Assembly (NCBI GenBank): GCA_040182905.1
Contig: JARQWU010000026.1
Location: forward strand, 1-64,000
Reading direction: 5' to 3'
Source of the DNA: Barthelona sp. PAP020
Lineage: Eukaryota
Length of the DNA: 64,000 nucleotides
Shown: positions 1 to 63,516 of the stretch, piece after piece
Numbering within the stretch: position 1 is the stretch's first letter
Layout: each line of letters begins with the position of its first letter
The notes under the pieces: model-generated
The model's input: the letters and a program-made list of their open reading frames with translations, nothing else
Told to the model about the DNA's origin: nothing
Databases searched by the model: none
Position numbers and translations under genes: made by a program

Positions 1-700
1 TAACATCAGCCCCATAATCCAACAGCATTTTGGCAACATCAAGGTGACCATTTTGACAACTAATTAACAATGGAGAAACACCATTATTATTGCACAAATT
101 AGCATCAGCCCCAAGATTTAAGAGCATTTCGGCAATATCAAGATAACCTTTTTGACAACTGATGAACAATGGAGAAACATTATTATTAAATAAACTAACA
201 TCAACCCCATGATCCAAGAGCATTTTGGCAACATTAAGATGACCTTCTTGACAACTGATGAACAATGGAGAAGCACCTTCACTATTGCATAAACTAACAT
301 CAGCTCCATGATCCAAGAGTATTTTGGCAACATCAAGATGACCTTTTTCACAACTTGTGTACAATGGAGAAGTACCATTCTTGTTCAACAAATTAACATT
401 GGCCCCATGATCCAAAAGCATTTTGGCAACATCAAGATCACCGTTATAACAACTGATGTGCAATAGAGAAACACCATTATTCTTACACAAATTGACATCA
501 GCCCTATGATCCAAGAGCATTTCGGTAACATCAAGATGACCATTTTGATAACTAACGAACAATGGAGAAGCACCATCATTCACACATAAATTAATATCAG
601 CTCCATGATCCAAGAGCATTTTGGCAACGTCAAGATGACCTTTAAGACAACTGATGTACAATGGAGAAAATCCATCATTCATACACAAATTAACATCAGC
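1..700 (-). repeat. Tandem ~99-bp ankyrin-coding repeat array
   Basis: The anchor caatggagaa (one copy caatagagaa) recurs at 68, 167, 263, 362, 461, 560 and 659, giving spacings of 99, 96, 99, 99, 99, 99. Confidence 0.95.
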
Positions 701-2467
701 ACCAAAATCTAACAAAAAATCAACAACTTCAATATGCCCATTAAAAGCAGCTCCCCAAAGCGATGTCCTTCCTTCCTTGCCCTGTTTGTTCACATCAACG
801 CCAGCCTTGATACACTGTTTGACAACCTCAAGATTACCATCACATGCAGCCCGATAAATCTTCTTTGGGCGACCGTTATCTTCAAATCCATCCACATCAA
901 ACCCATCTGGAACAACAACTTGATCCATCTTATACTTAACATATGGGTCAATGTCATTTTCATGTTTCACCATTGTACTCATCATTTCCAACCCGTTAAT
1001 CAACAAATCAAGGTATTCGATAATCTCTGAAAAAGTGGGTCTCTTTTCAGGGTTGGAATCAAAACACATAGATATGAACTCATATCCAACAACCAGCTCA
1101 ATATTGCTGAAAGGCTTCATTCCAGTACAGAGCTTTAAATTGACCATATGATCAGGCACCCCGTCAAAGGGAATATAACCGGTCATCACCTCAAAAAAAG
1201 TCACAGCAAACGCCCAATAATCAATTCCTGGATGTGTAGCGGCATTTTCTTGTGTAAAAATCTCTGGTGGCATGTAACGAACGGTTCCAAACTTGGACAA
1301 AACGCTGTTTCTTTTGAAAGAGCGAATCAGACCAAAATCACAAAGGGCAATTGTTCCATCATTTCTGATAAGCACATTTCTAGGTGTAACATCTCGATGA
1401 ATGAGGCCTTTGCTGTGACAAAAATTCAATGCATCTGCCAATTGCAACATACATTCCAGCTTTTGAATGACTGTCATTGACTGCATTTCTTTACTTAAAA
1501 CAGATGGACAATATTCCATTACATATCCCCATTTACCATCTCTACAGGTCAAACCATAGATACTACAAATATACTGATGAATAAACGTTGCTGCAATACA
1601 CTCACATTTCACTAACTCCTTCGTAGAGTCATATGGAAACTTAACGGCGACATCTCCTCTTTGATACTTTCCTTTGTAAATTGTCGCATATCCACCTCTG
1701 CCAATCTCTTCTAATGCGCTTATCCTGTCAAAAAGGATTTCAGGAATGTCAAAATCTGAGTTATTATGTTTGTTCTCTGTATTTTGAATCTTTTTCAAAA
1801 CATATTTCACATCATTTTCATGTGACAGAGAATCGATTTTTGACATCAACAATGACAACTTATCATTGGTTTGTCTTTGCAGCTTTTCAATCTTTTCAAA
1901 ATTCCTGCGCATCTCTTCCATCAGCTTTTCGTTTAACTGCAATAAATGATTAGCAATTTTAGTTGAAATTTCATCAGGCATCATATTTATGCTGCTAGTG
2001 GTCAACATCACATTCAAATCACCACTTAAGCTGTCAAATCTTTGATGCAATTCTTTAATCATCTCCAAATCCCGACTTCCAAAAAGGAAACTTTCAAAAA
2101 ATCCACGATTCAAACTCTTTTCCAAAATAGTTTGGGAAGATTCACAATTTTCGTAAAAAACTCTCATGAGTTGTTTGAACTTTGTATCATTTACCATAGC
2201 AGCTTGATTATACAATATTTCTTCAAAATTGGAAGATAACCAGAGAATTCGAAAAAACAGCACTTTTCCTTCTTGTTGGGCCTTTTTACTGTCTAAAAAA
2301 GCGGTACCCATCTTCAGTGCAATTGCAAAAACTGGTATATCACATTCAGAGAGAAGAGAAAAGACAGAATCAAATTCAATAGTTCCAATAACCTGTTAGA
2401 AATCATTGAAATCATTATTTACTGTTTCTAACAGCAAATTTTGAAAGTTTTTCACAACTTCTGCCAT
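1..2467 (-). CDS. Helical (MLKL-NTD-like) domain + coiled coil + protein kinase + ankyrin repeats; 3' end runs off the window
   Basis: Manual translation of the - strand shows an open frame from 2392 to base 1, absent from the ORF track because no stop falls inside the window. Kinase motifs are intact: IGRGGYATIY, VAVK, HRDVTPRN, DFG, GTVRYMPPE, DYWAFA, PEKRPTF. At least 9 ankyrin repeats follow (GxSPLxxSCxxGHLDVAKMLLDHGADVN). The ATG at 2467 needs removal of a putative 30-nt intron (2393-2422) that contains an in-frame TAA. Confidence 0.88.
2393..2422 (-). other. Putative 30-nt spliceosomal intron
   Basis: GTAAATAATGATTTCAATGATTTCTAACAG has GT..AG ends, a length divisible by 3, and removes the only stop codon in the frame. 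Confidence 0.55.
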
Positions 2468-3328: not shown

Positions 3329-4607
3329 GTGGGAGAATTTCGAGGGTTTGGAATTGTCAAGAAGTATTTGACACTGGACCCATCTAAAAGGTCAACCTTC
3401 AGCGAAATCATTGAGTATTTACAGATACTGATTGAACGTTTCGAGGAATTGGGATTTGTCAAGAAGAGGTTGGTGAAGGAGATTGCCATGTTGAAAGAGG
3501 AAAACAAAATTTATGAAGACAAAGTTCAAAGTTTGACAACAAGTGTTGACAAATTAAAAGAAGACAAAGCGAAGTTAACAAGTCAAAATCAAGAATTAAC
3601 AAATCAGGTTGATCGTTTGACAAATCAATTGAATGAACTCATAAACAACAATGATAAAAAAACAAAATGTTGACAATACGAATAACATTGTTCGTGAAGT
3701 CGAAAAGTTTGAAAAAATCCCTGTGTTTAGAGAGACATTTCCTGATAGTGTAGTTTACGCCCTTACTTACAGCCCTGATGGACTTTTTTTTGCAGTGATA
3801 GGATATACTAGCAAATTATTAAGAGTCTACAACGTTGACACACATAGTATTATGCATGAAGGACATTATGCAACAGATATTGGACTCAATTTCAGTCCAG
3901 ACTCCAAATTATTGGCTATTAGTGGTTACGGCCCAACAATTCATATTATTGAGGCTGATACTTGGAAAACAGTTGCAGTAATTAGAAACATGGCCAAGGA
4001 GGTCAAACAGGTGTGGTTCTCACCAAATGGCAAATTGCTTTCATTTGGCATGGCTAGTGGTTATATTGCCATATATACTGTTGAAGGACAACAGTTGTAT
4101 TAATCTAAAGCACATGAAGCATATGTTAACTCTGTATGTATTAGCCTTGATATGAAGTATTTTGCCTCTGTAAGCGAAGATAAATGTTCAACCTTGTTTT
4201 CATTGGAGACATATGAAAGGCTTCACACGTGTATGCGTGATGAAAATAAGGTTAGATCTGGTAAATTCTCACCCGATGGTGTTTATTGGGCTACAGGTGA
4301 TAGGAATGGTACAGTAAGGATATTTGGTGTTGAATCTCGAGAATTATTGGGAAAATATAAGCTTCATGGCAATTGGATATACTCAATAATCTTCTCCCAA
4401 GATGGTTCATTGATCTATTCTTGTTCTACTGACAATTCATTTGCTGTATTTCGAAGAGACACTGGTCAAATGCTGCAGAAAGTAAATGTATCTTTTCATA
4501 TTTATGATATGGCCCTCAATCATAATGGAACTCGTTTGTTGTGCAGTGGTAGGAAAAGCACCAAGGAAAATACCCCAATTCAAGAATTCATTGCTGTAGA
4601 TTTGTAA
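3329..4607 (+). pseudogene. Disrupted paralog of the kinase-coiled-coil-WD40 gene at 23223-25358
   Basis: Three consecutive ORF pieces align by eye with the 23 kb gene: GFGIVKKYLTLDPSKRSTFSEIIEYL vs GFGIIKRCLSIDPAERPTFSDIAEYL; VWFSPNGKLLSFGMASGYIAIYTV vs VWFSPNNELLSFGMANGYIAIYTV; DGVYWATGD. Most of the kinase is missing. There is a +1 frameshift in an A7 run (3656-3662) and an in-frame TAA at 4101-4103 where the paralog has Glu. Confidence 0.85.
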
Positions 4608-23222: not shown

Positions 23223-25358
23223 CTATGATTCCAAAGCAATAAACAGTTGAATTGGTACTGATCTGCCATCTTTATTACATACACAAAACAACCGAGTTCT
23301 ATCATAATTCAATACCATTCCATAAATTCTAAAAGGAACATTAACTCGTTGCAACACTTCACCTGTTTCTCTTCGGATTAAAGCAAATGTTTTATCCCAA
23401 GAACCAGAATAAATTATCGAACTATCTTGAGAAAAGGCAACAGAGCATATTGTGCCATTATGAATCATAAACTTTCCCAACAGCTCTCTAGATTCAACAT
23501 CAAATACCCTGACTGTTCCACCTTGATCACCTGTAGCCCAATAGACACCATCATGTGAGAAGTTGCCTGATATAACATCATTTCCATCATGATTCCACAT
23601 GTGAAGCTCTTCACACGTATCTAATGAAAATAACTTTGAACATGCATCACTACTAACAGAAGCAAAGTACCTCATATTGGGACTGATTCTAACATGCCAA
23701 ACATATTTTTTATGTGGTCTAAATTCATGTATTTTCTGTCCTTTAACAGTATATATGGCAATGTAACCATTAGCCATACCAAAGGAAAGCAACTCATTGT
23801 TTGGAGAAAACCAAACACTTTTCACAGTTTTGGGCATATCGACAATCTTTGAAATAATTTTCCAAGATCCAACCTCAATAATGTGTATTGATGGACCATC
23901 TCCACCAATGGCCAAAAGTTTGGAGTTTGGACTGAAATTCATACACCAGGTTATCTCATAACACGCTTCATGCACAATTTCAAATGTATTAGCATCATAC
24001 ACTCTCAGTAACTTGGAATTCAAACATCCTGCAACAGCAAAAAAAAGTCCATTAGAGCTGTAATCAAGAGCAAATGACATTGAATCAGGAAAATCTTGAC
24101 AAAACACAGGAATTTCAGAGAATCTATCGATATTATGAATGATTTGGCTTTCATTTTCAACAAGTGGTTTTCCATCTTTGCTTTCAATGAACTGGTTTGG
24201 TTCAATGTTCAATTTTTGTTTCTGAGAAATGATAGAGCTGTTCTTATTTCGTAAACTACTTATTTTATGGGTCAGTTCTTGTTTTTCAATCGTCCATTTT
24301 CTTTTATTTGCGGTTAAATTGCAAATTTCACTCAATAATTTTTGTTTTTCATCAGTCCATTTGTCTTTTTTCTCCTTCAGCACAACATTTTCTTCCTCAA
24401 AAGCTGAAACACGCCTTTGTAATCTTTTTTGATCAAATCCCAAACCCTCAAACCGCCCAATCAGCATTTTTAAATACTCGGCAATATCGCTGAACGTAGG
24501 TCTTTCAGCTGGATCAATGCTCAAACACCTCTTGATAATTCCAAATCCAGGTATTGTATCCAGTAATTCATTGGCATACGGAAGTTGTCCACTGCCCAAT
24601 TTGACAGCAATTCGAAAATCAGTTAACCCTTCAAAAGGAACAAACCCAGAAATAACCTGGGCCAACATAACACCAAAAGACCAGGCATTAATAGCTGTCC
24701 CTACAATATTTTCCTCTTCATTGGCAAACTCAGGAGCAGCATATTTTGCTGTGCCCATTATCGAATCGGCTGTACTTCTATTAACATTATGAACAAGCTC
24801 AAAATCCGAAATTGCTGGTGTATACAACCCATCAACACTATGTCTTAACAAAATATTTTTCGGCTTTAAATCGCAGGCCATGACACCTTTGTTGTGACAA
24901 AACTCAAGCGCAGACGAAACTTGCATCATAATAACCAACTTTTCCTTCAAAGACAATTCTGGAATCAATTCCTCCAGATTAACATCACAATATTCCATTA
25001 CAATACCTTTCTTTCCATCAATCTCAGTCACTCCAAAAACTTGTTGAACGAATGGGTGATCCAAAACCATTGGAAAACATTCATGTGCAAGACAATCATC
25101 AGTAATTTCTTCATTAAAAACTTTAATAATAACAAGTTTTTCATGTCTGTTTGCAAGATGCTGGAAGCCAAACCTTTCCATTTTTAAATTATAATTAACT
25201 ATTTTAAACTCTTTTTCAGGCACATAAACGTCATTTGATTCAATTAAATTTTGTAATTTTTCAAAAGCGTCATCGTCCTGTTTCTTGATGTTCTTTTTGT
25301 AGTTCTTCGAATTTCGGTCATAATCTTTCAGGCCTTGAATTTCTTCAAAGGTAAACAT
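23223..25358 (-). CDS. Degenerate protein kinase + coiled coil + WD40 beta-propeller
   Basis: Kinase subdomains IIK, VMEYC, ACDLKPKN, DFE, GTAKYAAPE, ERPTF. Heptad region follows, then about 7 WD40 repeats (FSPNSKLLAIGG, SGSWDKT). ATG at 25358. Confidence 0.9.
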   Translation of the reverse strand: MFTFEEIQGLKDYDRNSKNYKKNIKKQDDDAFEKLQNLIESNDVYVPEKEFKIVNYNLKMERFGFQHLANRHEKLVIIKVFNEEITDDCLAHECFPMVLDHPFVQQVFGVTEIDGKKGIVMEYCDVNLEELIPELSLKEKLVIMMQVSSALEFCHNKGVMACDLKPKNILLRHSVDGLYTPAISDFELVHNVNRSTADSIMGTAKYAAPEFANEEENIVGTAINAWSFGVMLAQVISGFVPFEGLTDFRIAVKLGSGQLPYANELLDTIPGFGIIKRCLSIDPAERPTFSDIAEYLKMLIGRFEGLGFDQKRLQRRVSAFEEENVVLKEKKDKWTDEKQKLLSEICNLTANKRKWTIEKQELTHKISSLRNKNSSIISQKQKLNIEPNQFIESKDGKPLVENESQIIHNIDRFSEIPVFCQDFPDSMSFALDYSSNGLFFAVAGCLNSKLLRVYDANTFEIVHEACYEITWCMNFSPNSKLLAIGGDGPSIHIIEVGSWKIISKIVDMPKTVKSVWFSPNNELLSFGMANGYIAIYTVKGQKIHEFRPHKKYVWHVRISPNMRYFASVSSDACSKLFSLDTCEELHMWNHDGNDVISGNFSHDGVYWATGDQGGTVRVFDVESRELLGKFMIHNGTICSVAFSQDSSIIYSGSWDKTFALIRRETGEVLQRVNVPFRIYGMVLNYDRTRLFCVCNKDGRSVPIQLFIALES

Positions 25359-31038: not shown

Positions 31039-31303
31039 AGTCTTTTTTTTGTTTTTTGGAGATATTATAATTAATTAATATAAATACAATTGTCAGTCGT
31101 TTAATTTATTACATATTTCGCTGATTTGATTTCTTTTTTCTCAGTTGTTCCACTAGGAATTGTTAAAAAGTGCCATTTTCAAAAAATAAACACTCGTATC
31201 TTTCTTTATGAAGATTTTTTAAATCTTTTGATAGACTAAATTAAAAAAAGAAGTGAAATAAAAAAAAACTTCAAAAAAAAATCAATTATCTTTGAATGTA
31301 ACA

Positions 31304-57738: not shown

Positions 57739-58653
57739 TTATTCAGACACAATTTCTTTTGAATTTAGTTCTTCAAAATTTGAGGATAAATTTGAATCTT
57801 GATTGGTTTCAAATCTCTCGGAAGATTGGGTGAGAATTCTTTTGTTAAACAAATATTTTTCTTTTCCAAGGCTGTCTGAAAAATCTAAAGCACCTTTAGG
57901 ACAAATGTGGCAACATCCATAACACTTTACACACAAATTTTGGTCATAGTCAAGTGTAATCACACCATCAACTTCTTCAACAGACTTAATAGCATTTACA
58001 GGACAATAGTTAACACAAGATTGACACAATATACAAGATTCAGGATTAATCCTCAAATTTCTTCCGGATTTTAACATCCAAGGAAATACAATTGAACCAA
58101 TAAATCCGGCAAATATGCTACTGTTAGAAACACCAACAGTTTCATGCTTTTCAATATTCTCCAAGCAATTGTTAACAAAACTTTCCAAGTGTTCAAAACT
58201 CTCCAAAGGCCATAAATGTTTTCTTTGACCAATAGGCTTACCGAATGGTGGATAATTGGGAGGTCCTTGAATATCAGTTGATCCAACACACAAACCTCCA
58301 AGTTTATTGATGAGTTTGGCGATGTTTTTATTGGTTTTTCCATAAGCACCTGCATGAGTTGAGAAAACAAAATAAAATTTATTTGCAAACGTGTTTGAAG
58401 GAAGTGAATTCAAAAAATCAAGGAAAAACTGAGGGGGAGCAAAACTCCAAGTGGGTGAACCAATACCAAAACAATCATAATCTTTCCAACTTTCAAAATC
58501 TACTGAACATTTTTCGTCGAGAATATTCTTGTTTTCAACTCTCCAATCAAACACATCTACTTGATGATTTTTTGTTTTTAATATTTCCCCAATTCTTCTT
58601 GACACTTCTTTGGTGTTTCCAGTTGTTGAGTAATAAATTAATAAGAATTTCAT
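57739..58653 (-). CDS. Flavodoxin-fold + 2x[4Fe-4S] ferredoxin fusion (EFR1-type)
   Basis: FMN loop YYSTTGNTKEV and GIGSPTW. Two CxxCxxCxxxCP motifs: CILCQSCVNYCP and CVKCYGCCHICP. Confidence 0.92.
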   Translation of the reverse strand: MKFLLIYYSTTGNTKEVSRRIGEILKTKNHQVDVFDWRVENKNILDEKCSVDFESWKDYDCFGIGSPTWSFAPPQFFLDFLNSLPSNTFANKFYFVFSTHAGAYGKTNKNIAKLINKLGGLCVGSTDIQGPPNYPPFGKPIGQRKHLWPLESFEHLESFVNNCLENIEKHETVGVSNSSIFAGFIGSIVFPWMLKSGRNLRINPESCILCQSCVNYCPVNAIKSVEEVDGVITLDYDQNLCVKCYGCCHICPKGALDFSDSLGKEKYLFNKRILTQSSERFETNQDSNLSSNFEELNSKEIVSE

Positions 58654-58815
58654 GATCAATTATTAAAAAAAGAAAAATATTGTAAAATTCTTGCATTCTA
58701 AACATCAAACTAAAAGATGTAAAAAACGGAAAATTAACAATTTTCAGCTTGAAAAGTGAATAATTCAATTAATAAATAAATAAAAAACATATTTATGAGG
58801 GAATCTTAACATTGA

Positions 58816-61300: not shown

Positions 61301-61515
61301 TATTTTTTCTTATTTAAATAAATTGTTTGTTTTTTTTTTTTTTTGATTTGATAATTTATTTGTTTGAATTAACTGATTGTTTTTGTAATTTTTGAAAAAA
61401 AGAAAAAAAATCAAATCTTTTAAAAAAGAAAGGAGATTTGACATTTGCAAAAGTCCAGATACTTTTGTGTGAATCTCATATAAATCAGCAACAAAATTCT
61501 TCCTGTTTTTTATAC

Positions 61516-63516
61516 ATGGATAATAATAAGCTACCAATTACTGAACAATCGAATCCATTGACCATTAATATTGATTTGCAAGACTCACTTGGAATATTGA
61601 GAAATTTACGACAAGTTGACAACCAGATATTTGTTGGTTACGATACATATCCTTCATTATTAGAAACAAGTTCAATCGATAAAATTGAAGAATTATCCAA
61701 ATTGTTGTTGTCTGTTTTGAATTCAAATGATGGACTCATTATTTTTTCAGGTGCTGGAACATCAGGACGTTTGGGTGCTCTATGTACATCTTTGTACAAC
61801 GAAAAATTAATTAAAATGAATAGAAGACCTTGTTTCAAATTTATTTTAGCTGGAGGTCCTAAAGCTTTGGTGAAAGCTCAAGAAGGTGCTGAAGACAGTT
61901 CAGAGTTAGCTATTGGTGATATTGAACAAATCTTAACAAAATATCAACCCTCTAAATTGATGTTTATTGGTATTACTTGTGGATTTTCTGCAAATTATAT
62001 AGCTTCGCAAATGGAATATTTATTGAAGAATACTCCCCATGATGTTGTTTTGATGGGATTCAATCCCATTGAAAAGGCAAGAAATTTCAAACAAAAATGT
62101 TTGAACAATCGATCTTTTAAAGATGTTTTAGATGAATGTCTTGAATACAATAAATTTCATGTGCTAAATCCAATTGTTGGACCAGAAGCTATTACTGGTT
62201 CAACTAGAATGAAATCAGGTACAATCACGAAAATTCTTTGTGATTTAATTTTTCACAAAGCTTTATATCCTTCTATGGCCATACGTCAAGCTGTTAATCA
62301 TTATCGTCGAGCGGTTGATTGTGCTTATTCTAATTTGCCTGCATTGGCTTCTATTATTGATTCAGTATCAACAGCTATTATTCATGGAGAACGTTTATTT
62401 TATGTCGGTTCAGGTGTTGCTGGAGCATTAGGATTAATTGATGCCAGTGAATGTCCTCCTACATTTGGTGCTGATTTTAATACCGTCAGAGGATTTGTTG
62501 AAGGTGGATGGGAGATTTATAGAACTTCTGGTACTGATGATGTTTTGGGGTTGTCTTCTGAAGGGAACCTTTTTGAAATCAGTTTGAGTGGATTTTGTGA
62601 TTTAATTGAACGCTCTGGTTTAACACAAAAAGATACAGTTGTGTTTTTGGCGTTGAATGCATTAACTCCACGTCAAGTTGAATTGCAAAAACTGTTAGCT
62701 GAAATGTCAGTTTTATCCTACACCATCATTGTGACTGATCGTATGGTTGTGGAAGAAAATAGTGGCAATTCTTCAGATATTGAGGACATCTTTTATGAAA
62801 AGCCAGTTGATGAAATGGAAAAAATTCAAACAAACTGTTTTATTCCAAAGGAAAAAAATTTTTGGGTACCTGTGGATCGTTTTGTTACATATGATGATTA
62901 TGTTGCTCGTGTTACTGAAGCGAAACCATATTTGCCAAAAATGAGATCTGCAAATATTGATGAAATTCCCAGTTTGTTTGATTGGGAGATGTTAGTTGAT
63001 GATAACAATGAAAATGCGTTTGTTTCTAGTTTACCTACTTCCAATCATATCATAGAATCACATTATGATTGTCAAACATGTTCAACTCTTGTTTTGCAAT
63101 TACCTTTGGCTGGTTTTACCAATGGTTCCACTGAATTTGCTCAAATTGCGCTAAAATTGGTGTTAAATGCTATCACAACTTCATCATTTGTGTTGACTGG
63201 GAAGGTATTCAGAAATCTGATGGTAGATCTTAGAGTTTCCAATGCAAAGCTCTTTCAAAGATCCATCAATATTATTTCTGCTGTTACTCATGAATCTAAA
63301 GAAAAGTCCAAAGACTTGCTTTTGAAATCAATTTACAGAAGAAACAACTACCCAGATTTACCTGTAAATGGATATGTTGATGCTGCTGCTGATGTTACAA
63401 AGATTATTCCTGTTGCTTTATTGTTATCAACAGGAAAATTTGATGTATGGCAGGCTGTTGATGCACTACAAGGAAATCCTATTGTAAGAAGTGTTGTAAT
63501 AGCCCATTTGGAATGA
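61516..63516 (+). CDS. Double-SIS protein, glucokinase regulatory protein (GKRP)/MurQ etherase family
   Basis: LPITEQSNPLT, SGAGTSGRLG, QEGAED, GFNP, GPEAITGSTRMKSGT, DASECPPTFG, GKVFRNLMVDLRVSNAKLFQRS. Confidence 0.9.
   Translation: MDNNKLPITEQSNPLTINIDLQDSLGILRNLRQVDNQIFVGYDTYPSLLETSSIDKIEELSKLLLSVLNSNDGLIIFSGAGTSGRLGALCTSLYNEKLIKMNRRPCFKFILAGGPKALVKAQEGAEDSSELAIGDIEQILTKYQPSKLMFIGITCGFSANYIASQMEYLLKNTPHDVVLMGFNPIEKARNFKQKCLNNRSFKDVLDECLEYNKFHVLNPIVGPEAITGSTRMKSGTITKILCDLIFHKALYPSMAIRQAVNHYRRAVDCAYSNLPALASIIDSVSTAIIHGERLFYVGSGVAGALGLIDASECPPTFGADFNTVRGFVEGGWEIYRTSGTDDVLGLSSEGNLFEISLSGFCDLIERSGLTQKDTVVFLALNALTPRQVELQKLLAEMSVLSYTIIVTDRMVVEENSGNSSDIEDIFYEKPVDEMEKIQTNCFIPKEKNFWVPVDRFVTYDDYVARVTEAKPYLPKMRSANIDEIPSLFDWEMLVDDNNENAFVSSLPTSNHIIESHYDCQTCSTLVLQLPLAGFTNGSTEFAQIALKLVLNAITTSSFVLTGKVFRNLMVDLRVSNAKLFQRSINIISAVTHESKEKSKDLLLKSIYRRNNYPDLPVNGYVDAAADVTKIIPVALLLSTGKFDVWQAVDALQGNPIVRSVVIAHLE

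What the first reader, a model, noticed from the sequence alone, without database searches (positions are those of the whole stretch)
1..2467. Hidden gene: MLKL-like four-helix domain + active kinase + ankyrin array
Seen in sequence, not in the ORF track: the N-terminal ~150 aa (..DIPVFAIALKMGTAFLDSKKAQQEGKVLFFRILWLSSNFEEIL..FKQLMRVFYENCESSQTILEKSLNRGFFESFLFGSRDLEMIKELHQRFDSLSGDLNV) has the amphipathic-helix spacing I associate with the MLKL N-terminal/HeLo/RPW8-like four-helix bundle plus brace. A coiled coil, an intact HRD/DFG kinase and ankyrin repeats follow. Established: the 4HB of MLKL permeabilises membranes in necroptosis, and RIPK4 is kinase-ankyrin. Inference: one polypeptide combining a variable sensor, a kinase switch and a membrane-disrupting executor, i.e. 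a necroptosis-like module in a unicellular eukaryote.
Basis: partly seen in the sequence, partly recalled or inferred. Interest (0 to 1): 0.85.

Follow-up and report, generated by a model that had tools for sequence, protein, structure and literature searches.

The report
Protist MLKL-bundle kinase with ankyrin tail
An anaerobic single-celled eukaryote has a small gene family that joins a helical bundle related to the animal cell-death protein MLKL, a kinase and a swappable repeat tail, which likely acts as a one-piece immune sensor, although this copy carries an early stop codon and is probably a dying duplicate.

Summary
The architecture is real. Window 2467->1 (-) encodes a ~39-residue helical cap, an MLKL-type four-helix bundle (4HB), a brace/coiled coil, a kinase with intact catalytic motifs and at least 9 ankyrin repeats that run off the window. 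A family profile finds MLKL at ranks 1-6 of 10 PDB hits (E 1e-5 to 8e-5), and the predicted fold ranks human and plant MLKL first, though by small margins. All 6 relatives found among 1.84 billion proteins are Barthelona sp. PAP020 transcript ORFs. They include an intact 4HB-kinase-ankyrin, a 4HB-kinase-WD40 and an MLKL-like 4HB-pseudokinase. This copy is probably a young pseudogene; its neighbour is also broken. An immune or cell-death role is inferred, not shown. In the only tested 4HB-plus-active-kinase I found (wheat Pm13) the kinase, not the bundle, kills. Verdict: new variant of a known kind, worth testing through the intact paralog.

The parts
2351..2467 (-). N-terminal helical cap (codons 1-39), ahead of the position matching MLKL residue 1; contains the premature stop
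   Evidence: Conserved in relatives; three helices 2-16, 21-29, 32-41 in the P0002 model; MLKL residue 1 aligns to P0002 residue 40
2396..2398 (-). In-frame TAA at codon 24; relatives have a residue here (Gln in P0002)
2393..2422 (-).
2000..2350 (-). MLKL-type four-helix bundle (P0001 residues ~15-131)
   Evidence: Profile vs PDB E 1.1e-5; model helices 21-33, 40-62, 70-95, 106-130; VIA-align 6ux8 Z 10.8, rmsd 5.1, 145 aligned
1763..1981 (-). Brace / coiled-coil helices
   Evidence: Helix 140-163; helices 164-213 and 219-233 in the P0002 model, the second at pLDDT under 50; only sub-threshold coiled-coil Pfam matches
1010..1717 (-). Protein kinase domain with GRGGYA, VAVK, HRDVTPRN, DFG and YMPPE; activity predicted, not shown
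2..865 (-). Ankyrin array, at least 9 repeats, cut by the window edge; 7 internal repeats 77-87% identical in DNA, most variable at four target-contact columns
3344..4607 (+). Broken neighbour from the same kinase family: kinase C-terminal end, coiled coil, WD40; 5'-truncated, frame change near 3660, TAA at 4101-4103
23223..25358 (-). Related open gene: degenerate kinase, coiled coil, WD40, no 4HB

Best explanation
This gene encodes an MLKL-type four-helix bundle, brace, kinase and ankyrin array, belongs to a small family whose other members come from a barthelonid flagellate and likely work as one-piece immune sensors, and is itself probably a young pseudogene because of a stop at codon 24. 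Shown: the domain order, the MLKL relationship of the bundle, intact kinase motifs, ankyrin or WD40 tails on kinases about 60% identical, variation concentrated on the ankyrin contact face, and the stop. Inferred for intact members such as P0004: (1) the repeat tail binds a foreign or damage-linked ligand; (2) binding clusters the protein through the brace coiled coil; (3) the clustered kinases phosphorylate each other, doing in one chain what RIPK3 does for MLKL; (4) this moves the N-terminal cap and frees the bundle, which damages a membrane and kills or arrests the infected cell. Separate odds: architecture and MLKL homology 0.9; this copy non-functional 0.7; sensor/defence role of the family 0.55; bundle as the membrane-active output 0.4.
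For: MLKL relationship: 5 of 5 hits MLKL, E 0.34-0.51; ranks 1-6 of 10, E 1.1e-5 to 7.7e-5, next 0.0063; MLKL_N clusters at 0.93; human MLKL Z 10.8, AtMLKL3 Z 10.6 first of 48,161 chains. Family: 6 of 6 hits from one barthelonid transcriptome; P0004 has the same architecture over 796 aligned residues at 49%; P0003 has WD40 instead; P0007 is 4HB-brace-pseudokinase (HRN, NFG). Family kinases group at 97/96 against three outgroups. Fast turnover: the N-domain is 57% and the kinase 82% identical to P0002; broken copies lie at 2398, at 3344-4607 and in P0002, a complete ORF that ends at HRDVTP. Ankyrin contact columns have pN 0.44 against framework pN 0.11 and pS 0.20, and are the most variable of 14,950 four-column sets. 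Pseudogene; the next Met (window 2311) lies inside helix 1 of the bundle; a 6,724-codon open frame in the same window argues against frequent base errors. Precedent for a removable cap: sea cucumber MLKL is activated by cleavage after residue 17 (PMC11932488, passages).
Against: No function was tested. The fold scores are below the Z of about 13 that the tool asks of helical bundles and are tied with unrelated bundles: HHM 9.9 and Sla2 9.8, Sla2 first, HHM first; Foldseek E 0.41. The window's own domain does not match Pfam MLKL_N; 2 of 7 members do, best E 1.2e-4, and the window member's only hit is GAT. The bundle region is net acidic or neutral (-3 here; -7, 0, -4, -8, -5 in five relatives), unlike the basic lipid-binding face of human MLKL, although mouse and plant MLKL lack that face too (10.1101/2021.05.03.442385, passages). 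Pm13's 4HB and 4HB-brace are not toxic. P0002 and P0006 are transcribed as bundle-brace without a whole kinase, which a freely lytic bundle would not easily allow. Variable contact columns are usual in ankyrin arrays (recalled); I picked the columns from the recalled DARPin convention after seeing the repeats, and the pairwise rates are not independent. The kinase motifs of this copy show no decay, so any loss is recent; a base error at the stop cannot be excluded without reads.
Confidence: 0.42

Rival explanations
1. Pm13-like kinase fusion protein: the bundle is an auto-inhibitory lid or decoy, the brace dimerises the kinase, and kinase signalling to other proteins (possibly the 4HB-pseudokinase P0007) is the output.
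For: Pm13 has 4HB-brace-active kinase, and only brace-kinase caused cell death (PMC11297308, passages). Kinase motifs are kept in P0001, P0003 and P0004. The bundle is capped and acidic. A separate MLKL-like pseudokinase exists in the family.
Against: One tested precedent only. In animal MLKL, AtMLKL and fungal HeLo/HELL proteins the bundle acts on membranes (passages). The bundle is kept in all 6 relatives, but they were found by searching with it.
Confidence: 0.3
2. This copy is functional after all: the nonsense change created a branch-point motif and a new 30-nt intron that removes the stop, or the stop is a sequencing error.
For: The segment starts GT, ends CTAACAG, is a multiple of three and removes only cap residues. 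The remaining 797 codons are open with kinase motifs intact. An earlier scan note on another protist called such breaks assembly errors (e1-7157236, unchecked).
Against: The GT and AG come from Val and Gln codons conserved in P0002. The spacing differs from the two likely true introns. The pattern is common by chance. The adjacent paralog has three lesions. The ankyrin framework shows 20 non-synonymous to 10 synonymous departures, including P>L, G>R and H>D, suggestive of relaxed selection but inconclusive.
Confidence: 0.25
3. Ordinary lineage-specific signalling kinases (development, feeding, encystment) whose helical N-domain is a scaffold with no link to immunity or death.
For: Kinase-ankyrin proteins are widespread: all ten Atlas rows shown for P0004 are kinase-ankyrin clusters, none with MLKL_N listed. 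The fold scores overlap with non-death bundles. The flanking genes are mostly housekeeping.
Against: The sequence profile picks MLKL specifically. Tail swapping, broken copies and contact-face variation fit a conflict system better.
Confidence: 0.2

Closest known systems
Wheat/Aegilops Pm13 (MLKL-K kinase fusion protein)
   Same: N-terminal MLKL_NTD 4HB, brace, then a kinase with catalytic motifs (PMC11297308, passages)
   Different: Pm13 is 476 aa with no repeat tail; here an ankyrin or WD40 tail and a ~39-residue cap are added; protist rather than grass
Animal MLKL (necroptosis executioner)
   Same: 4HB-brace-kinase-fold order; gapless ~115-position profile match, E 1e-5; an Arg invariant in the family aligns to human R34 (numbering read from the alignment offset)
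   Different: MLKL is a pseudokinase switched by RIPK3, starts directly with helix 1 and has no repeats; only P0007 here matches that layout
Plant MLKLs (AtMLKL1-3)
   Same: HeLo/4HB plus brace plus kinase-like domain; 6ka4 Z 10.6, rmsd 5.0, 144 aligned
   Different: Pseudokinase with a Ser-rich tail, tetrameric auto-repression (10.1101/681015, passages); oligomer state here unknown
Fungal BaMLKL / Goodbye-like / HELL domains
   Same: MLKL-type bundle with an extra N-terminal helix or helices; all-in-one fusion with sensor repeats in NLRs (PMC9815663); some HELL domains fused to kinases (PMC12881547); top Atlas cluster mostly Basidiomycota
   Different: Fungal sensors use a NACHT/NB-ARC switch between bundle and repeats; here a kinase takes that place
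RIPK4 / ANKK1 (kinase-ankyrin)
   Same: Kinase followed by an ankyrin array; listed among Atlas look-alikes of P0004
   Different: No 4HB; no evidence of orthology; the best solved-structure match of the kinase was EGFR, E 3e-31

Membership tests
MLKL_N / HeLo-like 4HB superfamily | Sequence homology to the MLKL N-terminal domain | tested here: met
   Family profile vs PDB E 1.1e-5, ranks 1-6 of 10; Atlas 0.93. Single sequence only E 0.34.
MLKL_N / HeLo-like 4HB superfamily | Pfam PF22215 at its curated cut-off | tested here: not met
   2 of 7 members match weakly, best E 1.2e-4; window member no match; full-length P0007 16.5 bits against cut-off 27
MLKL_N / HeLo-like 4HB superfamily | Four-helix bundle followed by a brace helix, MLKL topology | tested here: inconclusive
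   Model pLDDT 78.5 with four long helices plus brace; MLKL ranks first at Z 10.8 (rmsd 5.1, 145 aligned) but within 1 Z of HHM and Sla2
MLKL (orthodox) | Catalytically dead pseudokinase domain | tested here: not met
   VAVK, HRD and DFG intact in P0001; degenerate only in P0007 and the 23 kb paralog
MLKL (orthodox) | Activation by RIPK3 phosphorylation | not testable with these tools
   No genome held; needs biochemistry
MLKL (orthodox) | Oligomerisation through the brace | not tested
MLKL (orthodox) | Bundle permeabilises membranes | not testable with these tools
   Net charge -3, no 19-residue window above hydropathy 1.8 in any member; not decisive
MLKL-K kinase fusion proteins (Pm13 type) | MLKL_NTD-brace-kinase with catalytic motifs | tested here: met
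MLKL-K kinase fusion proteins (Pm13 type) | Kinase-dependent cell death from the brace-kinase fragment | not testable with these tools
   Needs expression assays
RIPK4/ANKK1 | Kinase orthologous to RIP kinases | tested here: inconclusive
   Nearest kinases are barthelonid (47-60%), then 24-33%; no RIPK sequence was in the tree
Intact protein-coding gene | Open frame from the conserved start | tested here: not met
   TAA at codon 24 within conserved coding sequence; standard code, as TAA ends 8 and TAG 3 of 18 long frames

The most novel reading that the evidence does not exclude
Barthelonid metamonads have a complete necroptosis-like circuit built without NLRs or RHIM amyloids: fast-evolving receptor kinases (MLKL bundle-kinase-ankyrin or -WD40) sense infection and fire their own capped bundle and a dedicated MLKL-like pseudokinase, so that MLKL-based lytic defence exists in a deep-branching unicellular lineage and the kinase replaces the NLR ATPase as the switch between sensor and executor.
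Probability: 0.25. Interest if true: 0.85.

Novelty: new variant of a known kind. Interest (0 to 1): 0.55.

Why it matters
MLKL-type bundles fused to kinase folds are described in animals, plants and fungi. My literature searches found no report of the three-part bundle-kinase-ankyrin protein or of such proteins in metamonads; the library lacks most subscription journals. A small family holding active-kinase sensors, a pseudokinase form and swappable tails is a compact system in which to test whether free-living protists have lytic innate immunity, and whether the MLKL layout is ancient or repeatedly reinvented. The experiment should use the intact paralog P0004, not this copy.

Tried and rejected
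Alternative genetic code (TAA as Gln): rejected, as TAA ends 8 of 18 long frames in the window. Ancestral intron: rejected. Word-based homolog search with residues 1-170 found none among 806 candidates; the profile search of longer proteins returned only P0002 and P0007 among 7,993 scored; both are weak evidence of absence, since known relatives were missed. Sequencing runs: no RNA holder was listed, so splicing and the stop could not be checked on reads. No whole genome is held, so the C-terminus and the family size are unknown. The metagenome scan gave 2 loci from 177 candidate stretches, both short 34-35% kinase matches, not followed. The domain alignment was too divergent for contig scans, and viral contigs were not scanned. 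Foldseek gave no match at E <= 0.001. HET-S HeLo and RPW8-type (ADR1/NRG1) chains were not among the 50 rows shown; this does not exclude them. Complex prediction of four bundle-brace copies was not available, so there is no verdict on oligomers. No second bundle copy in the window (the first attempt missed even the known copy and was redone in chunks). Four other window ORFs were not in the protein collection by exact sequence (my start positions were guesses). The MLKL mention in the Anaeramoeba symbiont preprint is a figure-legend abbreviation only. Earlier scan notes held nothing for this genome or sequence.

Full report
What is there. On the minus strand an ATG at 2467 opens a frame that meets TAA at codon 24 (2398-2396) and then stays open to the window edge. 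The 797 residues after the stop (P0001) hold a kinase (residues 226-461, Pfam E 2.5e-37) and 9 ankyrin stretches. The kinase has GRGGYA, VAVK, HRDVTPRN, DFG and YMPPE. The window uses the standard code: of 18 long frames, 8 end in TAA, 7 in TGA and 3 in TAG. No genome is held, so the C-terminus is missing.

The N-terminal domain is MLKL-related. Alone it gives only weak PDB matches, but all 5 of 5 are MLKL, over about 100 nearly gapless residues (E 0.34-0.51). The ESM Atlas puts it next to an unnamed, mostly basidiomycete cluster (0.95) and two MLKL_N-bearing clusters (0.93; 22% and 10% of members carry the family). A profile of the window domain and its six relatives finds MLKL at ranks 1-6 of 10, E 1.1e-5 to 7.7e-5; the next hit is a designed coiled coil at 0.0063. 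AlphaFold2 gives four long helices and a brace helix (pLDDT 78.5). Among 48,161 chains the best are human MLKL (Z 10.8, rmsd 5.1, 145 aligned) and AtMLKL3 (Z 10.6), with mouse MLKL fifth (9.6), but HHM (9.9) and Sla2 (9.8) are tied with them. Sla2 leads and HHM, and Foldseek's top row, MLKL, has E 0.41. Pfam MLKL_N is matched weakly by 2 of 7 members and not by the window's own domain. The fold evidence alone is therefore not decisive; the sequence profile is what makes the case. In the model of the intact relative P0002, three short helices (2-16, 21-29, 32-41) precede the bundle, and MLKL residue 1 aligns to residue 40, so the family has a ~39-residue cap that MLKL lacks.

The family. A search of 1.84 billion representative proteins gave 6 hits at E <= 0.001, all named by their source as Barthelona sp. 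PAP020 transcriptome ORFs. I infer that the window comes from a barthelonid or close relative, an anaerobic free-living metamonad (PMC11316075, passages). Architectures: P0004 bundle-kinase-ankyrin, 815 aa, 49% identical over 796 positions; P0003 bundle-kinase-WD40; P0005 bundle-kinase (HLD)-short ankyrin; P0007 bundle-brace-pseudokinase (HRN, NFG, no glycine loop), the true MLKL layout; P0002, the closest (57% N-domain, 82% kinase), listed as a complete ORF that ends at HRDVTP; and P0006, bundle and brace only. The kinase search returned P0003 (60%) and P0005 (47%), then a drop to 24-33%. The family kinases and the window's 23 kb kinase-WD40 gene group at 97/96 against only three outgroups, with inner forks open. 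So ankyrin and WD40 tails sit on closely related kinases.

The intron is not supported. The relatives are transcript-derived and carry the same ten positions as protein: P0002 is identical at 7 of 10, with Gln at the stop, and none of 20,000 random intergenic translations scores as well. The GT and AG are the conserved Val and Gln codons. Similar GT..YTAAC..AG strings occur 38 times in the window. The two likely true introns, inferred from sequence and not from reads, place the branch motif 8-10 nt from the end, against 2 here. The next Met is inside helix 1 of the bundle. The divergent neighbour (3344-4607) is a 5'-truncated kinase-coiled coil-WD40 remnant with a frame change and its own TAA. 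A 6,724-codon open frame in the same window argues against frequent base errors, though the neighbour's frame change sits at a run of seven A and could be one. I put about 0.7 on this copy being non-functional. A newly created intron or a base error remain possible, and no RNA run was listed to test them.

The ankyrin array. Seven internal repeats are 77-87% identical in DNA. The four columns that I took from the recalled DARPin contact positions have pN 0.44, against framework pN 0.11 and pS 0.20, and are the most variable of 14,950 four-column sets. I chose them after seeing the repeats, and the pairs are not independent, so this is suggestive of a diversifying binding face, no more. The framework has 20 non-synonymous and 10 synonymous departures from the majority codon, compatible with relaxed selection. 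The ninth repeat is still an internal type where P0004 already has its terminal repeat, so repeat number probably differs between copies.

How it most likely works (inferred). In intact members the repeats bind a ligand, the brace clusters the chains, the kinases phosphorylate each other, and the capped bundle is released to damage a membrane. This is the RIPK3-MLKL step folded into one chain, and parallels all-in-one fungal and plant NLRs (PMC12881547, passages). Support for the last step is by analogy only. Against it: Pm13's bundle and bundle-brace are not toxic while brace-kinase is (PMC11297308, passages). N-terminally extended fungal bundles have no settled function (PMC9815663, passages). 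The bundle here is acidic, although lipid-binding faces differ between human, mouse and plant MLKL (10.1101/2021.05.03.442385, passages). AtMLKL immunity can be separated from cell death (10.1101/681015, passages). For a removable cap, sea cucumber MLKL is switched on by cleavage after residue 17 (PMC11932488, passages).

Novelty. Bundle-brace-kinase proteins are known in animals, plants and fungi, and the Pm13 paper lists separate MLKL_NTD fusions to kinase and to WD40 in grasses. I did not read its Supplementary Data 9-10, nor any supplement, and these may hold further architectures. Searches (listings and abstract starts) and passages of PMC9950082, PMC10583209, PMC8662602 and 10.64898/2026.04.11.717937 showed no bundle-kinase-ankyrin protein and no metamonad MLKL-like family. 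The ten Atlas rows shown for P0004 are kinase-ankyrin clusters without MLKL_N listed. Two unchecked notes of this scan describe MLKL-like fusions with LRR or WD40-Roc-COR in other protists, which suggests that such fusions recur and lowers the surprise somewhat. Verdict: new variant of a known kind, interest 0.55. The family deserves an experiment; this copy is probably its broken member.

Noticed in passing
window 31262-33214 (+): 650-aa protein with a Schlafen AlbA_2 domain (E 2.6e-17) followed by an AAA_16/NB-ARC-like P-loop NTPase and no obvious repeat tail; a second candidate defence gene.
   Followed up: no
window 23223-25358 (-): Open kinase-coiled coil-WD40 gene related to the family but without the bundle; kinase motifs degenerate (no glycine loop, ACD for HRD, DFE for DFG); its WD40 part is 57% identical to the broken neighbour at 3344-4607.
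   Followed up: partly
P0007 (relative, 476 aa): Bundle-brace-pseudokinase with no tail: the exact MLKL layout in a metamonad transcriptome; weak Pfam MLKL_N match.
   Followed up: partly
P0006 (relative, 282 aa): Bundle with an apparent ~55-residue insertion resembling a duplicated fourth helix, ending just before the kinase.
   Followed up: no
window 34209-54383 (+): 6,724-codon intron-free frame with a hydrophobic N-terminus, Cys-rich stretch and several hydrophobic segments at the C-terminus: a giant predicted surface protein (read by eye, not scanned).
   Followed up: no
window 20211-20251 (-) and 18790-18825 (-): Two likely short spliceosomal introns (41 and 36 nt; GTAT start, CTAAY branch motif, TTTAG end), the first in a UCH-family deubiquitinase gene; the genome looks intron-poor.
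   Followed up: partly
window 57739-58659 (-): Flavodoxin fused to a 2x[4Fe-4S] ferredoxin domain, bacterial-looking; fits an anaerobe and could be a lateral transfer.
   Followed up: no
window 61396-63516 (+): Glucokinase-regulatory-protein-like (SIS-SIS-lid) gene.
   Followed up: no
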